Source: a virus
Taxonomy: Duplodnaviria > Heunggongvirae > Uroviricota > Caudoviricetes
Length of the DNA: 4,701 bases
Direction: 5' to 3' (one strand)
Virus record (IMG/VR): IMGVR_UViG_3300023290_000109
Each line of letters opens with the position of its first letter. The first letter of the stretch is position 1. The translations under genes were made by a program, and so were the position numbers. Under the pieces are notes generated by a model. It made no database searches and had not been told where the DNA came from. It saw only the letters and a program-made list of their open reading frames with translations. This document shows positions 1 to 4,701 of the stretch, piece by piece.

Positions 1-217
1 CTAACTCCTTCGTGTATTTTGCATCGAGCGCAGCAACATCACGCTGACGCATCTGTATGTCAGTAATTACCGCGTTCGCCAGCGTCAGTTCTCTGGCATT
101 TTTGTCGCGCTGGGCTTTGTAGGTAATGGCGTTATCACGGTAATGATTAACAGCCCATGACAGGCAGACGATGATGCAGATAACCAGAGCGGAGATAATC
201 GCGGTTACTCTGTTCAT
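1..217 (-). CDS. Rz: Rz-type i-spanin (inner-membrane spanin), N-terminal 72 codons; gene continues beyond the window start
   Basis: Minus-strand translation from ATG at 217..215 gives [72 protein letters not shown]..., with an N-terminal hydrophobic TM segment then a charged coiled-coil-like region, closely resembling lambda Rz as I recall it. Its ATG overlaps the endolysin stop (ATGA). Not in the ORF track because it is cut by the window edge. Confidence 0.85.
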
Positions 218-711
218 TGCTGACCCCACAAACAGATTTCACGCTCAATCTCACGACGAGTCATGAGACCTTTCCATTGCTTACCGCCAGCATATGTCCA
301 GCGACGTAGCTGATCACATGCGCCTTTGATATCGCCCTGGTTTATTTTGCGAAGAAGCGTCGATGTTCTGAAATTGCCAGCACCCACGTTGTAAACGAAT
401 GAGTAAAGAGCGCCGCGCATTGTTTCCGGTATATCGACTTTGATGTACGGGTTAATTTGTCTGGCGACCGTGGCAAGGTCTTTATTCAGGAGGGCTTTGC
501 ATTCTGCTTTGGTATACGTTTTACCGAGCATGATGTCTTTTCCTGTATGCCCGTGACATACAGTCCATACACCAACAATATCTTTGTATGGTATGTAGCT
601 GACACCTTCCAGACCATCGTTACCACTTGGGCCAGTGATTAACACTGATGCTATAGCAATTGCTCCGCCACCAATAGCAGCAGCAACGGCTTTTCGTAAT
701 GATGGAGGCAT
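214..711 (-). CDS. rrrD: SAR (signal-anchor-release) endolysin, T4-lysozyme-like muramidase, phage 21 R-type
   Basis: 165-aa ORF. The Gly/Ala-rich weakly hydrophobic N-terminus ([20 protein letters not shown]) is typical of a SAR domain. It is followed by the lysozyme catalytic region (..[26 protein letters not shown]..) carrying Glu, Asp and Thr in the spacing expected for the E-D-T triad. Start ATG (711..709) overlaps the holin stop (TAATG). Gene order S-R-Rz. Confidence 0.93.
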
Positions 712-926
712 TATTCACCTCTCGCAGCCTTGCGCTTATCTTCTTTAATCTTGAAATAAAGGTTTGTCAGGTACGTCAGCAGGCCAAATACCAGGCTACC
801 CAGCACACCTATTGCCGCCCACTGTGAGGGCGTGACTTTATCGAGCAACTGTAAAAACCAGTACCCGGCACTACCTGCTGAGGTACCATAGGCGACACCC
901 GTTGTTAACTTATCCATGGATTTCAT
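711..926 (-). CDS. essD: Class II holin / pinholin (phage 21 S-type) with dual-start motif
   Basis: 71-aa [13 protein letters not shown]... with two predicted TM helices and a charged C-terminus ([13 protein letters not shown]). Met1-Lys2-Ser3-Met4 is the classic dual-start arrangement (antiholin from Met1, holin from Met4). GAGGTG Shine-Dalgarno lies upstream. It is immediately upstream of, and overlapping, the SAR endolysin. Confidence 0.9.
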
Positions 927-1052
927 AACCCCACCTCGCAGACAAAGCGGGTGTAAATTAAGGGGATACTACGTATCGCAATAAAGGCAGAAACGTAACA
1001 GATTCGGAGTCAGTGAATAACTCAGGTATTGGGTTATCAGCTAATATCGAGA

Positions 1053-1088
1053 CTCAAAAAATGGAAAAACCCGCTCGACGGCGGGTTT
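1053..1088 (-). terminator. Rho-independent terminator on the minus strand, about 130 nt upstream of the holin start; candidate tR'-like late terminator
   Basis: Perfect 8-bp stem AAACCCGC (1067-1074) / GCGGGTTT (1081-1088) with a 6-nt loop. Read on the minus strand it is followed by TTTTTCCATTTTTT. The plus strand has no U-tract after the stem. Confidence 0.55.
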
Positions 1089-1243
1089 AAGCTGTGTGAC
1101 GAAGTAACCACTCTTAACAGCATAACCAATTTTTTACGTACGTAAACTACTAAATGATATTTGTGAGAATGCCACCGAGTGTTCAAAACACCACCACAAA
1201 TGCATAAGAAAACTTCAACAAATAACCAGTTAATAATTTCCAA

Positions 1244-1514
1244 TGTTATTTTTAGTTTGTTTAAATTAAGCTAAAGAATTATAGAGCACTTATAAATAAG
1301 TGCCATTAATATAAATTAGCTAATAGATTTATTTTTGTTCAGACAAGAGCCATGAATAGGATTAGATAGAAAAGGTTCAGATAAAAATAGAGATCTACTT
1401 CACAAATTAAATGAGAAACTAAAACTTACATCTTGAAATAATCACATTGATTAGATGAATATTTATCGCGCAGTGACATCATTTTTTAATAATAGTTCAA
1501 AAAAAGGGCGTACA
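1244..1514 (+). promoter_or_regulatory. AT-rich upstream regulatory / promoter region and 5' UTR of the porin gene; exact -35/-10 not resolved
   Basis: Strongly AT-rich relative to the flanking genes. TTGAAA at 1433-1438 is a possible -35 but I could not pair it with a convincing -10. AAGGG Shine-Dalgarno at 1504-1508 lies about 6 nt before the porin ATG. Contains the dyad GCACTTAT-AA-ATAAGTGC at 1286-1303. Confidence 0.35.
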
Positions 1515-2597
1515 ATGAAAAAATTAACAGTGGCAATTTCTGCTGTAGCTGCATCAGTACTGATGGCGATGTCTGCTCAGGCAGCTGAAATTTATAATAA
1601 AGACAGTAACAAGCTGGATCTATACGGGAAAGTTAATGCCAAGCACTACTTCTCCTCTAATGATGCAGATGATGGTGATACTACTTATGCCCGTCTTGGC
1701 TTCAAAGGTGAAACCCAAATCAACGATCAACTGACTGGTTTCGGTCAGTGGGAATATGAATTCAAAGGCAACCGTGCTGAATCTCAAGGTTCTTCCAAAG
1801 ACAAAACCCGTCTTGCATTTGCAGGCCTGAAATTTGGTGATTACGGCTCAATCGATTACGGCCGTAACTACGGTGTAGCATACGACATCGGTGCGTGGAC
1901 TGACGTTCTGCCAGAATTCGGTGGTGATACCTGGACCCAAACAGATGTGTTCATGACTGGTCGCACTACTGGTGTTGCAACTTATCGTAACAACGACTTC
2001 TTTGGTCTGGTCGATGGCCTGAACTTTGCTGCTCAGTATCAGGGTAAAAATGACCGCACTGACGTAACTGAAGCCAATGGTGATGGTTTCGGTTTCTCCA
2101 CTACTTATGAGTATGAAGGATTCGGCGTGGGTGCAACCTATGCTAAATCAGATCGCACTGACGGTCAGGTCGCCTATGGTAAGAGCAAATTCAATGCCTC
2201 CGGCAAAAATGCGGAAGTATGGGCTGCAGGCCTGAAATATGATGCGAACAATATCTATCTGGCTACCACATATTCTGAAACTCAGAATATGACCGTTTTT
2301 GGTAATAACCATATTGCAAACAAAGCACAAAACTTTGAAGCAGTAGCACAATATCAGTTTGACTTCGGTCTGCGTCCATCTGTTGCTTACCTTCAGTCAA
2401 AAGGTAAAGACCTTGGTGTTCATGGTGACCGAGACTTAGTCAAGTATGTCGATGTCGGTGCTACTTACTACTTTAATAAAAACATGTCCACTTTTGTTGA
2501 TTACAAAATCAACTTAATTGACGATAGTAAGTTTACCAAAACAGCTGGTATTGATACCGACGACATCGTCGCTGTAGGTCTGGTTTATCAGTTCTAA
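1515..2597 (+). CDS. nmpC: OmpC-family general diffusion porin, prophage-encoded (NmpC / Lc / OmpD-like), intact
   Basis: The track ORF starts at 1455, but the real start is the ATG at 1515 preceded by an SD: [23 protein letters not shown] | AEIYNKD... This is a 23-aa signal peptide with an AQA cleavage site, then a mature N-terminus [16 protein letters not shown] and C-terminal ...VGLVYQF ending in Phe, the hallmark of 16-strand enterobacterial porins. Conserved blocks GFGQWEYEF and [23 protein letters not shown] are present. The location between Q and the lysis genes in opposite orientation is the known position of nmpC in DLP12 and lc in PA-2. Confidence 0.93.
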
Positions 2598-2608
2598 TCT
2601 GACTTACG

Positions 2609-2648
2609 AAAAAGATATGTTGCGGGAGGCTTTGCCTCCGCAACATAT
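2609..2648. terminator. Long near-perfect hairpin; intrinsic terminator for minus-strand transcripts leaving Q, also a stem-loop in the porin 3' UTR
   Basis: ATATGTTGCGGGAGGC (2615-2630) / loop TTT / GCCTCCGCAACATAT (2634-2648), with a one-base bulge. On the minus strand the stem is followed by CTTTTTCG (the A-run at 2609-2613 on plus). On the plus strand it is followed by AAGTGGAG with no U-tract, so it is weak as a plus-strand terminator. Confidence 0.5.
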
Positions 2649-2734
2649 AAGTGGAGCCCTCAAGCCACTTCCTTTAGAAGCACTACCTTGCTTCTTACTA
2701 TATAAACCTTCTGTTATATATTACCCTTTATTTT

Positions 2735-2762
2735 GGGGGCGTTTCCACGCCCCATTTTTAAT
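2735..2762 (+). terminator. Rho-independent terminator of the porin transcript
   Basis: GC stem GGGGCG (2736-2741) / CGCCCC (2748-2753) with loop TTTCCA, followed by ATTTTTAATAACTTTT. It ends about 25 nt before the convergent Q stop codon. Confidence 0.55.
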
Positions 2763-2785
2763 AACTTTTAGTAAACAATTGCATA

Positions 2786-3169
2786 TCAATTAGAATTATT
2801 AGCAACGATATCCATATCTAACCGGATATCTAATGCCATTAACATCCCTTCAATTATGCCCTCAGCCTTCTGTAACCTTTTCCCGATATAACCATCCGAG
2901 CAGCAATGCTTACTTGCCAGTGACATGAATGTCATACCACATACATAATAATCTACTAATAAATCGTGTAAATCGCTGTTGTTCTTTTTCAGACGGGCCA
3001 TGCACCCGCAAATGATCATCGCGTCATCGTCACAACATTGCGGGCGAGATTTTACTTTTGAAGGAATTAATCCCTTAAAACCGGCGGCAATGGACGACCA
3101 GGTCACATCTTCATGATTATTAGCCGCCCACGCACCCCAACGCTCAAGAACCATCTGAATATCACGCAT
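2786..3169 (-). CDS. quuD: Late-gene antiterminator Q (quuD-like, phage 21/82-type Q family)
   Basis: [34 protein letters not shown]...[19 protein letters not shown]...[13 protein letters not shown]... Cys-rich zinc-binding-like motifs; it matches DLP12 QuuD as I recall it, in the expected position downstream of rusA/ylcG. The track ORF (132 aa) starts at a TTG at 3184. I prefer the ATG at 3169..3167 (127 aa), which has GGAG 8-9 nt upstream. Confidence 0.88.
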
Positions 3170-3254
3170 CAACTTACTCCACAAAAATCAGACCAGAACG
3201 CCAATTACAAGCAAAAATCAACAAAACAGTATTAGTTGATTGTTATCTCTGACT

Positions 3255-3395
3255 TCATACTCCTGTTCCTGTCAGGGTTTTGGCGTAATTCTTCAGTATT
3301 CGGTAATCGGTCAAAACAGAACCGAGGAAACGATATAAGCGCAGACGCCCCCAGCGGTGGCGAAGAAGTTCTGCCATATTAAACTCAAACATCAT
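3255..3395 (-). CDS. ylcG: Small protein YlcG-like (46 aa), between rusA and Q
   Basis: Not in the ORF track (too short). Minus-strand translation from ATG 3395..3393: [46 protein letters not shown], stop TGA at 3257..3255. Its start overlaps the rusA stop (ATGA). Matches the DLP12 small ORF ylcG as I recall it, in gene order and sequence. Confidence 0.7.
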
Positions 3396-3754
3396 TCATT
3401 CCCCATTTCGGTGATGGTCAGTTCCAGCCTCCCACCTTTGGTAACAGGCATCTTCACAACGCGGTAATCAACGACCTGAGCATCATCCAGCCAGAAACCT
3501 GCTTTAGTGAGTGCGTCAAAAGCGGCTTTTTGCAGATTATCCAGGTCACGGCGACGGCGATCCGGCATGTGGCACTCAATGCGGATTTTCACAGGCATAG
3601 CCAGGCCGATATCCAGCATTGCGTTTTTAATGATTCGGGCGACGTTATCGCGGTATGCCTGCCCCTCTGCGCTGACGTGCGTGCGCCCGCGATTATGGCG
3701 GTAATAGCGATTATTGCTCGGAGGCCAGGGTAATGTGATGCTGTAGGTATTCAC
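3392..3754 (-). CDS. rusA: RusA Holliday junction resolvase (crossover junction endodeoxyribonuclease)
   Basis: 120-aa [123 protein letters not shown], which I recognise as RusA. The start codon is GTG (3754..3752), overlapping the stop of the upstream ybcO-like frame (GTGA). Confidence 0.93.
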
Positions 3755-3879
3755 GCCTTAATAACCCCCTCTTTCAGCCACATAACCTGTGTTCTCGCCA
3801 TACCTTCCAGCGCGCATTCTTTTGCATATGCAGCATCGACTTGCTTGGCATGCCCTTTACCGGCAATCTTCTGTATGCG
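3751..3879 (-). pseudogene. ybcO: 3' remnant of ybcO (DUF1364-type nin-region gene), truncated at its 5' end; no usable start codon
   Basis: The frame ending with TGA at 3753..3751 translates ...[42 protein letters not shown]. The last ~25 residues match the C-terminus of DLP12 YbcO as I recall it. The frame is closed upstream by two in-frame TAG codons (3880-3882, 3886-3888), and the sequence upstream shows no YbcO-like N-terminal region in any frame. Confidence 0.5.
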
Positions 3880-3960
3880 CTAAACCTAGATAGAATCCAC
3901 TCTGTGCACATTGAAGCCCGCTCTATGCTTTCTTTCAGGTATTGAAGGGATTGAGATGGG

Positions 3961-4308
3961 CTAAGCATTATTGGCCTCCTGCATCAGGAGAAAGACAATC
4001 ATGGCGGCGCGGAGAGGTCTGGTATCAAATATTGGGCTTACGCCTTTTGCATCCACACACCATTCAGTTAACTGGTCTAAGATAGAAATCCTGTATTTCT
4101 CAATAATCGGCCATGAAGCGCTCGGATCATTGCAGTAGTCAGGCAAATGATTTAATGGCTCAAAAGTTGTATCAGCATTTCCGTAATACCATTTGTTGGT
4201 GTTATTCCCTGATGTTTCCGGTTTACTTGCCCAAAGGCCTTTAAAAATTATGTCTCCTACCATTCTGTTAATTTCAAAATCACTTAACTGTGAATAATCC
4301 ATTGTCAT
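3961..4308 (-). CDS. Hypothetical small nin-region phage protein (about 113-115 aa), function unknown
   Basis: The track ORF (3961..4344) begins at a GTG. I prefer ATG 4308..4306 ([21 protein letters not shown]...), which overlaps the ninE stop (ATGA), or the next ATG at 4302..4300, which lies 8 nt after a GAGGAA SD. It is a non-hydrophobic, Trp/Tyr-rich protein. My recollection is that similar proteins are annotated NinX/DUF2591-like in lambdoid nin regions, but I cannot verify the family from sequence alone. Confidence 0.75.
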
Positions 4309-4481
4309 TTCCTCGCACGATATCTTAGCCACCGGATATCCCACAGGTGGGCTGTGTAATTGAAGGTTTTTACGTCAGATTCTTTTGGGATTAGCTTGCG
4401 TTTATTTCTGGAGCGTTTCGTTGGAAGGTATTTGCAGTTTTCGCAGATTATGTCGGTGATGCTTCGTCGCTGTCGTCTCAT
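4305..4481 (-). CDS. ninE: NinE-like protein (58 aa)
   Basis: [58 protein letters not shown] from ATG 4481..4479, preceded by AGGAGG with 5-nt spacing. Matches lambda/DLP12 NinE as I recall it. The track's 88-aa version adds a TTG-initiated N-terminal extension that overlaps the upstream gene and is not credible. Confidence 0.8.
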
Positions 4482-4701
4482 GCAGCCCTCCTGACGCCCT
4501 GCCCGATCGCCATCAATGCCGCTTTGGATACGGTAGTAAACATCCGTCGAGGACTGATGAACGGTCGCCAAATCAGCAGCATGGAGCCTTTGCTGTTTCC
4601 CTTCTTCTCCAGCCCTGTCGATGGTTCGATAAAATTAATCCGTCCATCTGAACCGCCCCGGGAATCCTGGAGACTAAACTTCCTGAGAAAGAGGTAAACA
4701 G
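4478..4701 (-). CDS. 3' end of an upstream nin-region gene (possibly ybcN / Orf-NinB family), partial; runs off the window
   Basis: Open frame across the whole window edge: ...[73 protein letters not shown]. Its stop TGA (4480..4478) overlaps the ninE start (ATGA), the same coupling pattern seen through the rest of the operon. The family name is inferred from DLP12 gene order only. Confidence 0.5.

What the first reader, a model, noticed from the sequence alone, without database searches (positions are those of the whole stretch)
1244..2770. Intact porin 'moron' in opposite orientation between Q and the lysis cassette
A complete OmpC-family porin gene with its own AT-rich upstream region and own terminator sits between the late antiterminator and the holin, on the opposite strand from every phage gene in the window. 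Its upstream region is visibly more AT-rich than the flanking phage genes, consistent with horizontal acquisition as a lysogenic-conversion module. In K-12 DLP12 the equivalent gene is known to be inactivated by IS5; here no insertion is present and the C-terminal barrel signature (terminal Phe) is intact, so the host probably expresses an extra porin that could alter permeability and phage-receptor profile.
Basis: partly seen in the sequence, partly recalled or inferred. Interest (0 to 1): 0.5.

Follow-up and report, generated by a model that had tools for sequence, protein, structure and literature searches.

The report
Known prophage porin cassette (NmpC/Lc type)
This is an intact copy of the long-known NmpC/Lc porin gene that lambda-like E. 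coli prophages carry together with a small regulatory RNA; it is real and probably expressed, but it is ordinary, occurring in nearly half of complete E. coli genomes.

Summary
Window 1515-2597 (+) encodes an intact 360-aa general porin, alone on its strand between antiterminator Q and a phage-21-type holin, with a 25.5% GC upstream region and its own terminator. It is the classical NmpC/Lc lysogenic-conversion porin: 91.9% identical to PA-2 Lc and to IS5-restored K-12 NmpC, with 91-95% conserved flanks. The cassette occurs in 2476 of 5426 complete E. coli genomes and in at least 36 phage records. Its lineage is OmpD (80% to chromosomal Salmonella OmpD), not OmpC (63%).

- The ~165-nt 3' UTR (2598-~2762) matches the published IpeX RNA, which lowers OmpC/OmpF.
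- The cassette (~1150-2809) lies between Q and the late promoter PR', not downstream of PR' as stx genes do. It replaced the last ~20 codons of a longer ancestral Q, and a vestigial Q stop codon remains beside PR'. The porin is therefore not under Q control.
- The 3' half of the gene is a recombinant allele.

A 99.4%-identical module in phage Perceval is transcribed about 10-fold above background in lysogens. Verdict: already known, low interest. One minor new point is that the Q|PR' junction recurs as a slot for opposite-strand cargo, some of it defence-like.

The parts
1515..2597 (+). Porin CDS (360 aa plus stop), NmpC/Lc/OmpD-type general porin. Signal peptide 1515-1583. PEFGGD eyelet motif and C-terminal Phe present.
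   Evidence: Pfam Porin_1 E 1.9e-151, full length. E 6e-137 to solved OmpC structures. 91.9% identical to Lc and to restored NmpC. RefSeq WP_000737271.1.
1150..1514 (+). AT-rich (about 26-29% GC) regulatory region and 5' UTR of the porin, specific to the cassette. Contains the conserved CRP-like site at 1387-1407 (PA-2 annotation) and an SD-like AAGGG 8 nt before the ATG.
   Evidence: GC. (95% conserved with PA-2 and K-12). (PA-2 CRP site 100% conserved). No DNA similarity to chromosomal ompD loci.
2598..2762 (+). Structured 3' UTR, homologous to IpeX (published as 167 nt, made as part of the porin transcript and then processed). Ends in the terminator hairpin 2736-2753 plus T-run 2755-2759.
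   Evidence: Fold -53.6 kcal/mol, z -5.8, 0 of 200 shuffles as good. 91% conserved with the K-12 and PA-2 3' UTRs. Terminator scan. IpeX description in PMC12197685. Not in Rfam.
2614..2648 (.). Long hairpin just 3' of the porin stop. On the - strand it is followed by CTTTTTCG, so it looks like a terminator for transcription coming out of Q. On the + strand it is the first IpeX hairpin.
   Evidence: folds. (pairing kept through a shifted bulge in PA-2/K-12). A terminator role is inference.
2786..3169 (-). Late antiterminator Q (QuuD type, 127 aa, Pfam PF06530). Codons 121-127 plus stop (2809-2786) are encoded by cassette DNA and replace a longer ancestral C-terminus.
   Evidence: E 3.9e-53. (96% to K-12 QuuD; 76% to Lahn2 Q, which is 144 aa). 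(similarity to VT2-Sakai Q stops after ...LDMD, about window 2810).
1057..1148 (-). Late promoter unit PR' with the terminator-like hairpin that lies between it and the holin. Vestigial Q 3' end AGT TTA CGT ACG TAA (1148-1134). -35 TTTACG (1146-1141), 16-nt spacer, -10 TATGCT (1124-1119), predicted start about 1112. Hairpin 1088-1067 plus T-run to about 1057.
   Evidence: Core conserved in 363 phage records, overlapping the Q 3' end in Stx phages. In VT2-Sakai the homologous promoter's predicted start lies 258 nt upstream of the tR' T-run, equal to the mapped PR'-tR' distance. Alignments. Terminator scan.
1466..1499 (-). Position of the published DLP12 'essDp' (sigma-E-type) promoter. TGAACT (1499-1494), 16 nt, GTCACT (1477-1472), start about 1466. 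Divergent from and overlapping the porin 5' UTR.
   Evidence: Primer Pdlp12Fw of PMC7918800 matches 1568-1587 (-) exactly, and the fragment is given as -121 to +650 relative to that start. Motifs read from the sequence. Function not tested here.
711..926 (-). Holin (phage 21 S type, EssD), first gene of the lysis cassette. Followed by lysozyme 214-711 and the start of Rz at 1-217.
   Evidence: PF04971 E 2e-35; PF00959 E 1.3e-45. (annotation in S88).
4649..4701 (+). Left end of an IS3-family insertion sequence interrupting the phage N6-adenine methyltransferase gene. Not part of the porin cassette, but bears on prophage integrity.
   Evidence: identical to the IS3 end in EC21GDE043; S88 continues with the methyltransferase gene..

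Best explanation
Window ~1150-2809 is the classical NmpC/Lc lysogenic-conversion cassette of lambdoid E. coli phages: a self-contained, opposite-strand transcription unit made of an AT-rich regulatory region, an intact OmpD-lineage general porin, and a structured 3' UTR (IpeX) ending in an intrinsic terminator.

Shown:
- The gene is intact and full length.
- It is nearly identical to copies in plaque-forming phages and in ~46% of complete E. coli genomes.
- It is inserted between the body of Q and the late promoter PR'. It replaced the last ~20 codons of a longer ancestral Q and left that gene's stop codon next to PR'.

Inferred from position: late, Q-antiterminated transcription starts downstream of the cassette and never crosses it. 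The porin is therefore not a late gene as stx is. It is expressed from its own promoter in the repressed prophage.

From the literature: near-identical copies are transcribed in lysogens, and the 3' UTR is processed into IpeX, which lowers OmpC and OmpF post-transcriptionally.

Inferred net effect: the lysogen swaps part of its OmpC/OmpF population for a phage-encoded porin with different surface loops. This changes permeability and removes or masks porin receptors used by other phages and colicins.

The allele here is a recombinant. Its N-terminal half is the Lc/NmpC sequence, and its C-terminal half comes from a diverged allele that differs in discrete blocks, which are probably external loops L4-L8.
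For: Identity and intactness: (91.9% to Lc and to restored NmpC).

Flanks: 95% and 91% conserved with PA-2 and K-12.

Distribution: 2476 of 5426 genomes at >=80% coverage, with quuD under nearly every full-length hit sampled; 36 phage records cover >=80% of the porin region (19 at >=99% identity), including ev017, 2G7b, 4A7, Perceval and the PhiR phages.

Not OmpC: 63% to K-12 OmpC; the 'OmpC' name comes from a subfamily model.

OmpD lineage: 80% to the porin in the Salmonella fdnG-yddG-porin-smvA locus.

PR' location: the conserved core overlaps the Q 3' end in ~280 Stx phages, and the VT2-Sakai promoter-to-tR' distance of 258 nt equals the mapped value.

Junctions. Vestigial SLRT* versus Sakai SLRS*.

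Expression: Perceval NmpC ~10x above background in the lysogen; CFT073 nmpC up at 37 C at RNA and protein level; nmpC mRNA is a RybB target.

IpeX: 167 nt, made from the porin promoter and processed, represses OmpC. The window's 3' UTR is ~165 nt with z -5.8.

Mosaic allele: (72 synonymous differences in codons 181-360 against 17 in codons 1-180).
Against: - No expression or outer-membrane data exist for this particular strain.
- The simple sigma-70 scan finds no strong + strand promoter upstream of the porin, so the promoter rests on the literature and on expression of near-identical copies.
- The AT-rich upstream region is the kind of DNA H-NS silences, and nmpC of E. coli B has been described as 'quiescent' (title of Prilipov et al. 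1998, cited).
- The IpeX mechanism is unresolved: no complementarity to ompC has been reported.
- The receptor-exclusion consequence rests on my memory of the PA-2 literature, not on a tool result.
- A published sigma-E promoter for the lysis genes (essDp, start ~1466) differs from the PR' inferred here. Both lie downstream of the porin CDS in the phage sense, so the main conclusion is unaffected.
- Assignment of the variable blocks to loops L4-L8 is by alignment to OmpC and general knowledge, not by a structure computed here.
Confidence: 0.85

Rival explanations
1. The cassette is intact but transcriptionally silent ('quiescent porin') in this host, for example through H-NS binding to the 25% GC upstream region. 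It would then have no effect on permeability or receptors under ordinary conditions and would be only a reservoir allele.
For: Very AT-rich upstream DNA. No consensus sigma-70 promoter found on the + strand. nmpC of E. coli B is called quiescent in the title of Prilipov et al. 1998 (reference list seen). Expression appears conditional, with a CRP-like site and temperature dependence.
Against: A 99.4%-identical module is ~10-fold above prophage background in LF82 grown in LB. The CFT073 nmpC copies are detected at RNA and protein level at 37 C. ipeX RNA is measurable in clinical isolates. Intact reading frames persist across thousands of genomes, with far more synonymous than non-synonymous change (89 against 29 codons versus lc), which indicates purifying selection on a functioning protein.
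Confidence: 0.12
2. The porin is a late-operon passenger like stx. On this view PR' lies immediately 3' of Q, late transcription crosses the cassette, and the porin or its antisense RNA matters mainly during lytic growth.
For: In lambda and Stx phages PR' directly follows Q. The Q-porin spacer is structured on the - strand too (z -3.8).
Against: The porin is on the opposite strand, so late transcription could only produce antisense RNA. No - strand promoter-like site lies between 2598 and 2785. The sequence homologous to the experimentally placed PR' of Stx phages is at 1146-1119, together with a vestigial Q stop codon. A strong - strand hairpin followed by a T-run at 2648-2606 would stop unmodified polymerase leaving Q.
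Confidence: 0.03
3. It is a chromosomal ompC/ompD paralogue that merely lies next to a prophage and is not phage cargo.
For: RefSeq names it 'porin OmpC'. Its closest non-Escherichia relatives are chromosomal ompD genes.
Against: It lies inside the phage genome, between Q and PR'/holin, in packaged phage genomes of 45-50 kb. Both junctions fall within phage sequence. Its flanks share no similarity with chromosomal ompD loci. Some genomes carry up to 4 copies.
Confidence: 0.01

Closest known systems
Lc porin (gene lc) of lambdoid phage PA-2, GenBank J02580.1
   Same: Same position and orientation between Q and the lysis genes. 88.8% DNA identity over the whole module and 91.9% protein identity. 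5' region 95% and 3' UTR 91% conserved, and both annotated CRP sites are identical. Same 23-aa signal peptide.
   Different: Lc is 365 aa and this protein is 360 aa. Codons ~171-360 are only 64-81% identical at DNA level with many synonymous changes, which points to a different allele acquired by recombination. There are indels of 3 and 2 residues in two variable blocks, where this allele resembles Salmonella/Citrobacter OmpD in length.
nmpC of the cryptic prophage DLP12 (qsr') in E. coli K-12, with its 3' UTR RNA IpeX
   Same: Same gene neighbourhood: ninE, rusA, ylcG, quuD | nmpC | essD, rrrD, rzpD. Q is 96% identical. The 3' UTR and terminator are conserved. The porin, once IS5 is removed in silico, is 91.9% identical.
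   Different: K-12 nmpC is interrupted by IS5B near its 3' end, and here the gene is intact. DLP12 is a short remnant. The 100%-identical copy in S88 lies in a near-complete lambda-like prophage next to icd.
OmpD, the chromosomal major porin of Salmonella (yddG-ompD-smvA locus)
   Same: Nearest non-phage relative at 80% protein identity. The N-terminal barrel and the L3 region are almost identical. The lengths of two variable blocks match this allele.
   Different: OmpD is chromosomal, in a conserved non-phage locus. The signal-peptide coding region and both non-coding flanks are unrelated. OmpD has no IpeX-like 3' UTR homologue detectable by blastn.
stx genes and other morons of Shiga-toxin phages (cargo downstream of PR'/tR')
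   Same: Cargo carried in the Q-to-S interval of phages with the same Q family and a homologous PR' core.
   Different: stx lies downstream of PR' and tR' on the phage strand and is Q-dependent (PMC7547250). The porin lies upstream of PR' on the opposite strand with its own promoter and terminator, so it is a prophage-state gene.

Membership tests
General bacterial porin (Pfam Porin_1; OmpC/OmpF/PhoE/OmpD group) | Full-length match to the family profile | tested here: met
   PF00267 E 1.9e-151, profile positions 1-337 of 337. NCBIfam OmpC subfamily model 521 bits against a cutoff of 484.
General bacterial porin (Pfam Porin_1; OmpC/OmpF/PhoE/OmpD group) | Sec signal peptide, L3 eyelet motif PEFGGD, C-terminal aromatic residue (Phe) for outer-membrane assembly | tested here: met
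   Read from the translation: [23 protein letters not shown]|AE......[10 protein letters not shown]......GLVYQF-stop.
General bacterial porin (Pfam Porin_1; OmpC/OmpF/PhoE/OmpD group) | 16-stranded trimeric beta-barrel | not tested
   Inferred from E ~1e-137 full-length alignment to solved OmpC, OmpK36 and OmpF chains. No model was built.
NmpC/Lc prophage porin cassette of lambdoid phages | Close sequence identity to Lc and NmpC | tested here: met
   91.9% protein identity to both. 88.8% DNA identity over the module to J02580.1.
NmpC/Lc prophage porin cassette of lambdoid phages | Located between Q (quuD type) and the phage-21-type lysis genes, transcribed opposite to them | tested here: met
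   quuD lies under nearly every full-length E. coli hit sampled.
NmpC/Lc prophage porin cassette of lambdoid phages | Conserved 3' UTR (IpeX) ending in an intrinsic terminator | tested here: met
   91% column identity with K-12 and PA-2. ~165 nt against the published 167 nt. z -5.8. Terminator found.
NmpC/Lc prophage porin cassette of lambdoid phages | Expressed in the lysogen and lowers OmpC/OmpF | not testable with these tools
   Literature only: Perceval NmpC ~10x above background; IpeX represses OmpC.
Moron (independent cargo transcription unit in a phage genome) | Inserted between elements that are adjacent in related phages | tested here: met
   Q and the PR' core are contiguous in Stx phages and in 23 of 62 IMG/VR loci, but 1.69 kb apart here.
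Moron (independent cargo transcription unit in a phage genome) | Own terminator and atypical base composition | tested here: met
   Terminator at 2736-2753 plus T-run. 25.5-28.6% GC upstream against 46-48% in the flanks.
Moron (independent cargo transcription unit in a phage genome) | Own promoter active in the prophage state | tested here: inconclusive
   No + strand sigma-70 consensus hit at the scan's threshold. The literature says transcription starts at the phage porin promoter, and near-identical copies are expressed in lysogens.
OmpC proper (chromosomal ompC, next to micF/rcsD) | Orthology: high identity and the ompC locus context | tested here: not met
   63% identity with 21 gap positions to K-12 OmpC. 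Located in a prophage, not beside micF.
OmpD proper (chromosomal, yddG-ompD-smvA locus) | Locus context between yddG and smvA | tested here: not met
   Salmonella and Citrobacter relatives are in that locus. The window's gene is flanked by phage genes and its flanks are unrelated. Protein identity 80%.

The most novel reading that the evidence does not exclude
The Q|PR' junction of phages with PF06530-type Q proteins (QuuD, 933W and H-19B types) may be a recurrent, so far little-remarked cargo slot, distinct from the classical PR'/tR'-to-S slot that holds stx.

Cargo placed there is almost always on the opposite strand and AT-rich, and it lies outside the Q-dependent late transcript, so it can be expressed in the prophage state. 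The porin/IpeX cassette is one occupant: it entered by replacing the last ~20 codons of Q and left a vestigial Q stop codon fused to PR'. Other occupants include candidate anti-phage genes (HNH effector PDC-M68A, an OLD/HEC-04-like ATPase with a C5 methylase, PDC-S42, an NYN nuclease).

A corollary is that the canonical late promoter of DLP12-type prophages would be the conserved PR' core ~190 nt upstream of the holin, not only the sigma-E 'essDp' ~540 nt upstream.
Probability: 0.5. Interest if true: 0.3.

Novelty: already known. Interest (0 to 1): 0.15.

Why it matters
As a discovery it matters little. nmpC/lc has been known since the 1970s-80s, is annotated in RefSeq, and is present in nearly half of complete E. 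coli genomes.

Its practical relevance is that ExPEC/APEC strains carrying this exact sequence (S88, APEC O1, the ATCC 11775 type strain) have an intact extra porin plus an RNA that can depress OmpC/OmpF. Both are relevant to antibiotic permeability, serum and host interactions, and the host range of porin-dependent phages, for example in phage therapy.

The precise anatomy worked out here (cassette upstream of PR', truncated Q, mosaic loop-encoding half) explains why this cargo behaves as a lysogenic-conversion gene and not as an induction-dependent one. It also points to a reusable cargo slot.

Tried and rejected
- Rfam scan of the whole window at E<=1: only a chance hit (sau-19, 23 bits against a gathering score of 80) on the 2615-2648 hairpin. 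IpeX is not in Rfam.

- StxS homology: I tested whether the leader upstream of the holin is a homologue of the Stx-phage sRNA StxS. Only the PR' core is shared. In Sakai phages the PR' transcript runs 258 nt to tR', whereas here the only terminator is ~55 nt from the predicted start. Stx phages show no similarity to window 937-1064 or 1150-1300. I therefore do not call it StxS.

- Candidate late promoter at 1306..1278 (-): the scan's ATGGCA-17-TATAAT. Rejected because the -35 is not conserved in PA-2 or K-12 and because the homologous PR' lies elsewhere.

- Late promoter just 3' of Q (2598-2785, - strand): none found.

- Capture of flanks from a chromosomal ompD locus: no similarity in 80 loci from species-representative genomes.

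- The '100% over 1-4701' matches to EC21GDE043 and APEC E12053: these are an artefact of joining a distant IS3 end. No listed genome has the window's exact IS junction.

- Primary papers not held: Castillo-Keller 2006 on IpeX and Prilipov 1998 on quiescent nmpC. Rueggeberg 2015 and Blasband 1986 were not looked up. Their content is used only through citing papers or is marked as memory.

- Reverse primer of PMC7918800: does not match the window within 3 mismatches because of K-12-specific differences. Only the forward primer anchors essDp.

- Spurious ORFs: 1037-1243 (-), 2617-2793 (+) and PA-2 'ORF1' have no family hits and lie in non-coding conserved elements, so I treat them as spurious.
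Full report
**1. What is in the window**

All phage genes are on the - strand:
- start of Rz (1-217)
- lysozyme (214-711)
- phage-21-type holin (711-926)
- antiterminator Q of the QuuD type (2786-3169)
- ylcG, rusA, a DUF1364 remnant, NinX, NinE
- the 3' part of an N6-adenine methyltransferase gene

The only + strand gene is a porin. The ORF runs 1455-2597 and the annotated start is ATG 1515, giving 360 aa. It matches Pfam Porin_1 over the whole profile (E 1.9e-151) and aligns end to end with solved OmpC, OmpK36 and OmpF structures at E ~1e-137. A standard signal peptide, the PEFGGD eyelet motif and the C-terminal Phe are all present, and there is no frameshift or insertion.

GC content is 25.5% in 1244-1514, against 47.9% and 46.1% in the phage genes on either side. 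A + strand terminator (hairpin 2736-2753 followed by ATTTTT) lies 140 nt after the stop codon.

**2. Identity**

- Window 1-4648 is 100% identical to the chromosomes of E. coli S88, APEC O1, the ATCC 11775 type strain and many other ExPEC/APEC isolates.
- The porin region (927-2785) is >=99% identical in 19 phage records and covered at >=80% in 36. These include ev017, 2G7b, 4A7, Perceval and the PhiR phages propagated on ECOR13, MG1655 or C. It is 88.8% identical to the classical PA-2 lc record J02580.1.
- The protein is 91.9% identical both to Lc and to K-12 NmpC reconstructed by removing IS5B in silico.
- The holin-porin intergenic region is 95% conserved with PA-2 and DLP12, and the porin-Q spacer is 91% conserved.
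- The cassette (1153-2809) is present at >=80% coverage in 2476 of 5426 complete E. coli genomes, with up to four copies per genome; quuD lies under nearly every full-length hit sampled.
- RefSeq calls it 'porin OmpC' because it passes a subfamily-level model (521 bits against a cutoff of 484). It is only 63% identical to K-12 OmpC.
- Its nearest non-phage relatives are 76-81% identical porins of Salmonella, Citrobacter and Enterobacter. The Salmonella one lies in the fdnG-yddG-porin-smvA-tetR locus, which is the ompD locus.

So this is the known NmpC/Lc prophage porin, of OmpD lineage.

**3. The 3' UTR is a functional part**

The 171 nt after the stop codon fold into a chain of hairpins ending in the terminator (-53.6 kcal/mol, z -5.8, none of 200 shuffles as stable). 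They are conserved with the K-12 and PA-2 3' UTRs. The long hairpin at 2614-2648 keeps its pairing through a shifted bulge.

This is the position and size of IpeX. A 2025 review describes IpeX as a 167-nt RNA of DLP12, transcribed from the phage porin promoter as part of the porin transcript and then processed, that controls OmpC production without obvious complementarity (PMC12197685). Rfam has no model for it. From memory, the original paper (Castillo-Keller et al. 2006) attributed the drop in OmpC in PA-2 lysogens to this 3' UTR. I could not open that paper.

**4. Where the cassette sits relative to the late promoter**

An ~80-bp core (window 1065-1149) is shared with otherwise unrelated phages: a Klebsiella phage, Shigella VIT_AJPSC/SfIV, Lahn2 and phiP27. 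It is found in 363 phage records, including about 280 Stx1/Stx2 phages, where it overlaps the 3' end of Q. All five phages compared encode Q proteins of the same family (48-96% identity).

In VT2-Sakai the core carries TTTACG-16-TATCAT with a predicted start at locus position 592. The terminator GCCAGCC...GGCTGGC-TTTTTT ends at 849. That is 258 nt, the PR'-to-tR' distance mapped experimentally by Sy et al. (PMC7547250). The core therefore contains PR'.

The window's copy has, on the - strand:
- -35 TTTACG (1146-1141)
- -10 TATGCT (1124-1119)
- a predicted start near 1112
- a hairpin plus T-run at 1088-1057
- the holin ATG at 926

Immediately upstream it retains AGT TTA CGT ACG TAA (1148-1134), encoding SLRT-stop. 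This is homologous to the SLRS-stop that ends the 144-aa Q of Stx phages. On the other side, similarity to those Q genes stops after codon 120 (...LDMD, about window 2810). The window's Q then ends with seven unrelated codons, IVANNSN-stop.

The cassette is thus a ~1.66-kb segment (about 1150-2809) that replaced the last ~20 codons of an ancestral Q. It lies upstream of PR'. Q-dependent late transcription starts beyond the cassette and does not cross it. This fits the porin being a prophage-state gene, unlike stx, which lies downstream of PR'/tR'.

A different, sigma-E-type promoter for the DLP12 lysis genes has been published (Rueggeberg et al. 2015). From the primer and coordinates given in PMC7918800, its start maps to about window 1466 (-), with TGAACT-16-GTCACT at 1499-1472, back to back with the porin 5' UTR. 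Both candidate promoters lie on the holin side of the porin CDS, so the conclusion holds either way. Which one responds to Q remains to be tested.

One of the two 'CRP sites' annotated in the 1986 PA-2 record (window 1092-1112) falls inside the conserved PR' transcribed core and is probably not a porin control site. The other (1387-1407) lies ~110 nt upstream of the porin ATG and is identical in the window.

**5. The allele is a mosaic**

Against PA-2:

| Segment | DNA identity |
|---|---|
| 5' flank and first ~510 nt of the CDS | 94-99% |
| 2027-2626 | 64-81% |
| 3' UTR | back to 94% |

There are 72 synonymous codon differences in codons 181-360 against 17 in codons 1-180. The amino-acid differences cluster in five blocks. 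By alignment to OmpC these correspond to the external loops of the C-terminal half (inference). In two of the blocks this allele has the length of Salmonella/Citrobacter OmpD and not that of Lc/NmpC. A third allele type is seen in another E. coli genome (L007). Synonymous changes outnumber non-synonymous ones overall (89 against 29 codons), consistent with a protein under purifying selection whose surface-exposed half is exchanged by recombination.

The cassette's non-coding flanks have no detectable similarity to any chromosomal ompD locus.

**6. Is it expressed, and what does it do**

Nothing can be measured here, but two papers give direct evidence for close relatives.
- In LF82 the NmpC gene of prophage Perceval (99.4% identical module) is about 10-fold above local prophage background in overnight LB culture, alongside the repressor (PMC9928086).
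- In CFT073 both nmpC copies are preferentially expressed at 37 C at RNA and protein level (PMC12890032).
- The nmpC mRNA is also reported as a RybB target.

The most likely function is the known one. The lysogen makes a phage-encoded general porin, and through IpeX it reduces OmpC/OmpF. This changes permeability and the set of porin receptors available to other phages and colicins. The last step is inference plus my memory of the PA-2 literature.

The main rival is that the gene is silent in this host. That is made less likely by the data above but is not excluded.

**7. State of the prophage**

In S88 the identical region belongs to a lambda-like prophage next to icd. It has integrase, recombination, immunity, replication, head and tail genes and the serum-survival gene iss. 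However, the replication O gene is frameshifted and there are two other pseudogenes.

In the window itself an IS3-family element begins at 4649, inside the methyltransferase gene. The host's copy is therefore probably somewhat decayed, while nearly identical cassettes ride in plaque-forming phages.

**8. A side result**

I scanned IMG/VR for the most conserved 16 nt of the PR' core. This gave 62 loci with a same-family Q upstream on the same strand:
- In 23, Q abuts the core (58-89 nt).
- In 14, the porin intervenes (1690-1708 nt).
- In 25, other inserts of 0.6-2.9 kb intervene, in about ten size classes.

The longest ORFs of these other inserts are mostly on the opposite strand and the inserts are AT-rich, 31-42% GC in most. 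Some ORFs match candidate defence families: PDC-M68A HNH, a HEC-04/OLD-like ATPase next to a C5 methylase, PDC-S42, and an NYN nuclease. The sample is the first 80 of more than 120 exact matches, so these are not frequencies. They do show that the Q|PR' junction is reused as a cargo slot.

**9. Verdict**

Novelty: already known. Interest: low (0.15).

The added value here is the exact anatomy: cassette boundaries, truncated Q with a vestigial stop codon beside PR', IpeX, and the mosaic allele. There is also the modest observation that the Q|PR' junction is a recurrent slot for opposite-strand cargo.

Noticed in passing
window 4649-4701: Left end of an IS3-family insertion sequence interrupts the phage N6-adenine methyltransferase gene. 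S88 and APEC O1 lack it, and the same IS end occurs elsewhere (near iss) in strain EC21GDE043. The apparent 100% full-window matches are a joining artefact.
   Followed up: yes
window 1065-1149 (- strand); L089 558-643: An ~80-bp core containing PR' of PF06530-type Q phages is conserved in 363 phage records. It includes a terminator-like hairpin plus U-run only ~25-55 nt after the predicted start, even in Stx phages, where the mapped PR' transcript runs 258 nt. Why that early hairpin does not terminate there, or whether it plays a part in Q loading, is unexplained.
   Followed up: partly
IMG/VR loci L092-L171; L088 3650-5042; L006 2593-3822: The gap between Q and the PR' core holds varied cargo of 0.6-2.9 kb, mostly on the opposite strand and AT-rich. 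It includes matches to candidate defence systems (PDC-M68A HNH, HEC-04/OLD-like ATPase plus C5 methylase, PDC-S42, NYN) and several proteins with no family hit.
   Followed up: partly
window 1092-1112: The first 'CRP binding site' annotated in the 1986 PA-2 GenBank record is identical in the window. It lies inside the conserved PR' initial-transcribed hairpin, so it is probably not a porin regulatory site.
   Followed up: partly
window 1466-1499 (- strand): The published sigma-E-type promoter of the DLP12 lysis operon maps ~50 bp upstream of the porin ATG and points away from it. It overlaps the porin 5' UTR and promoter region, so the two transcription units may interfere with each other.
   Followed up: partly
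L025 (E. albertii NBRC 107761) 1117-2667: An 89%-identical porin with its 3' UTR lies directly beside chromosomal ycgN/ycgM-like genes, without Q. The contig ends 1.4 kb upstream. This may be a prophage remnant that kept only the cassette.
   Followed up: no
L002 (E. coli S88) 19431-19724 and 26501-27333: The prophage carrying the identical cassette also carries iss (a serum-survival lipoprotein, homologous to bor) just beyond Rz, and it has a frameshifted replication O gene. It is therefore a virulence-associated and probably replication-defective prophage integrated next to icd.
   Followed up: no
window 3751-3840 (- strand): A remnant (the C-terminal 30 codons) of a DUF1364 gene lies between rusA and NinX and is annotated as a pseudogene in S88. 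It is a small deletion scar in the nin region.
   Followed up: no
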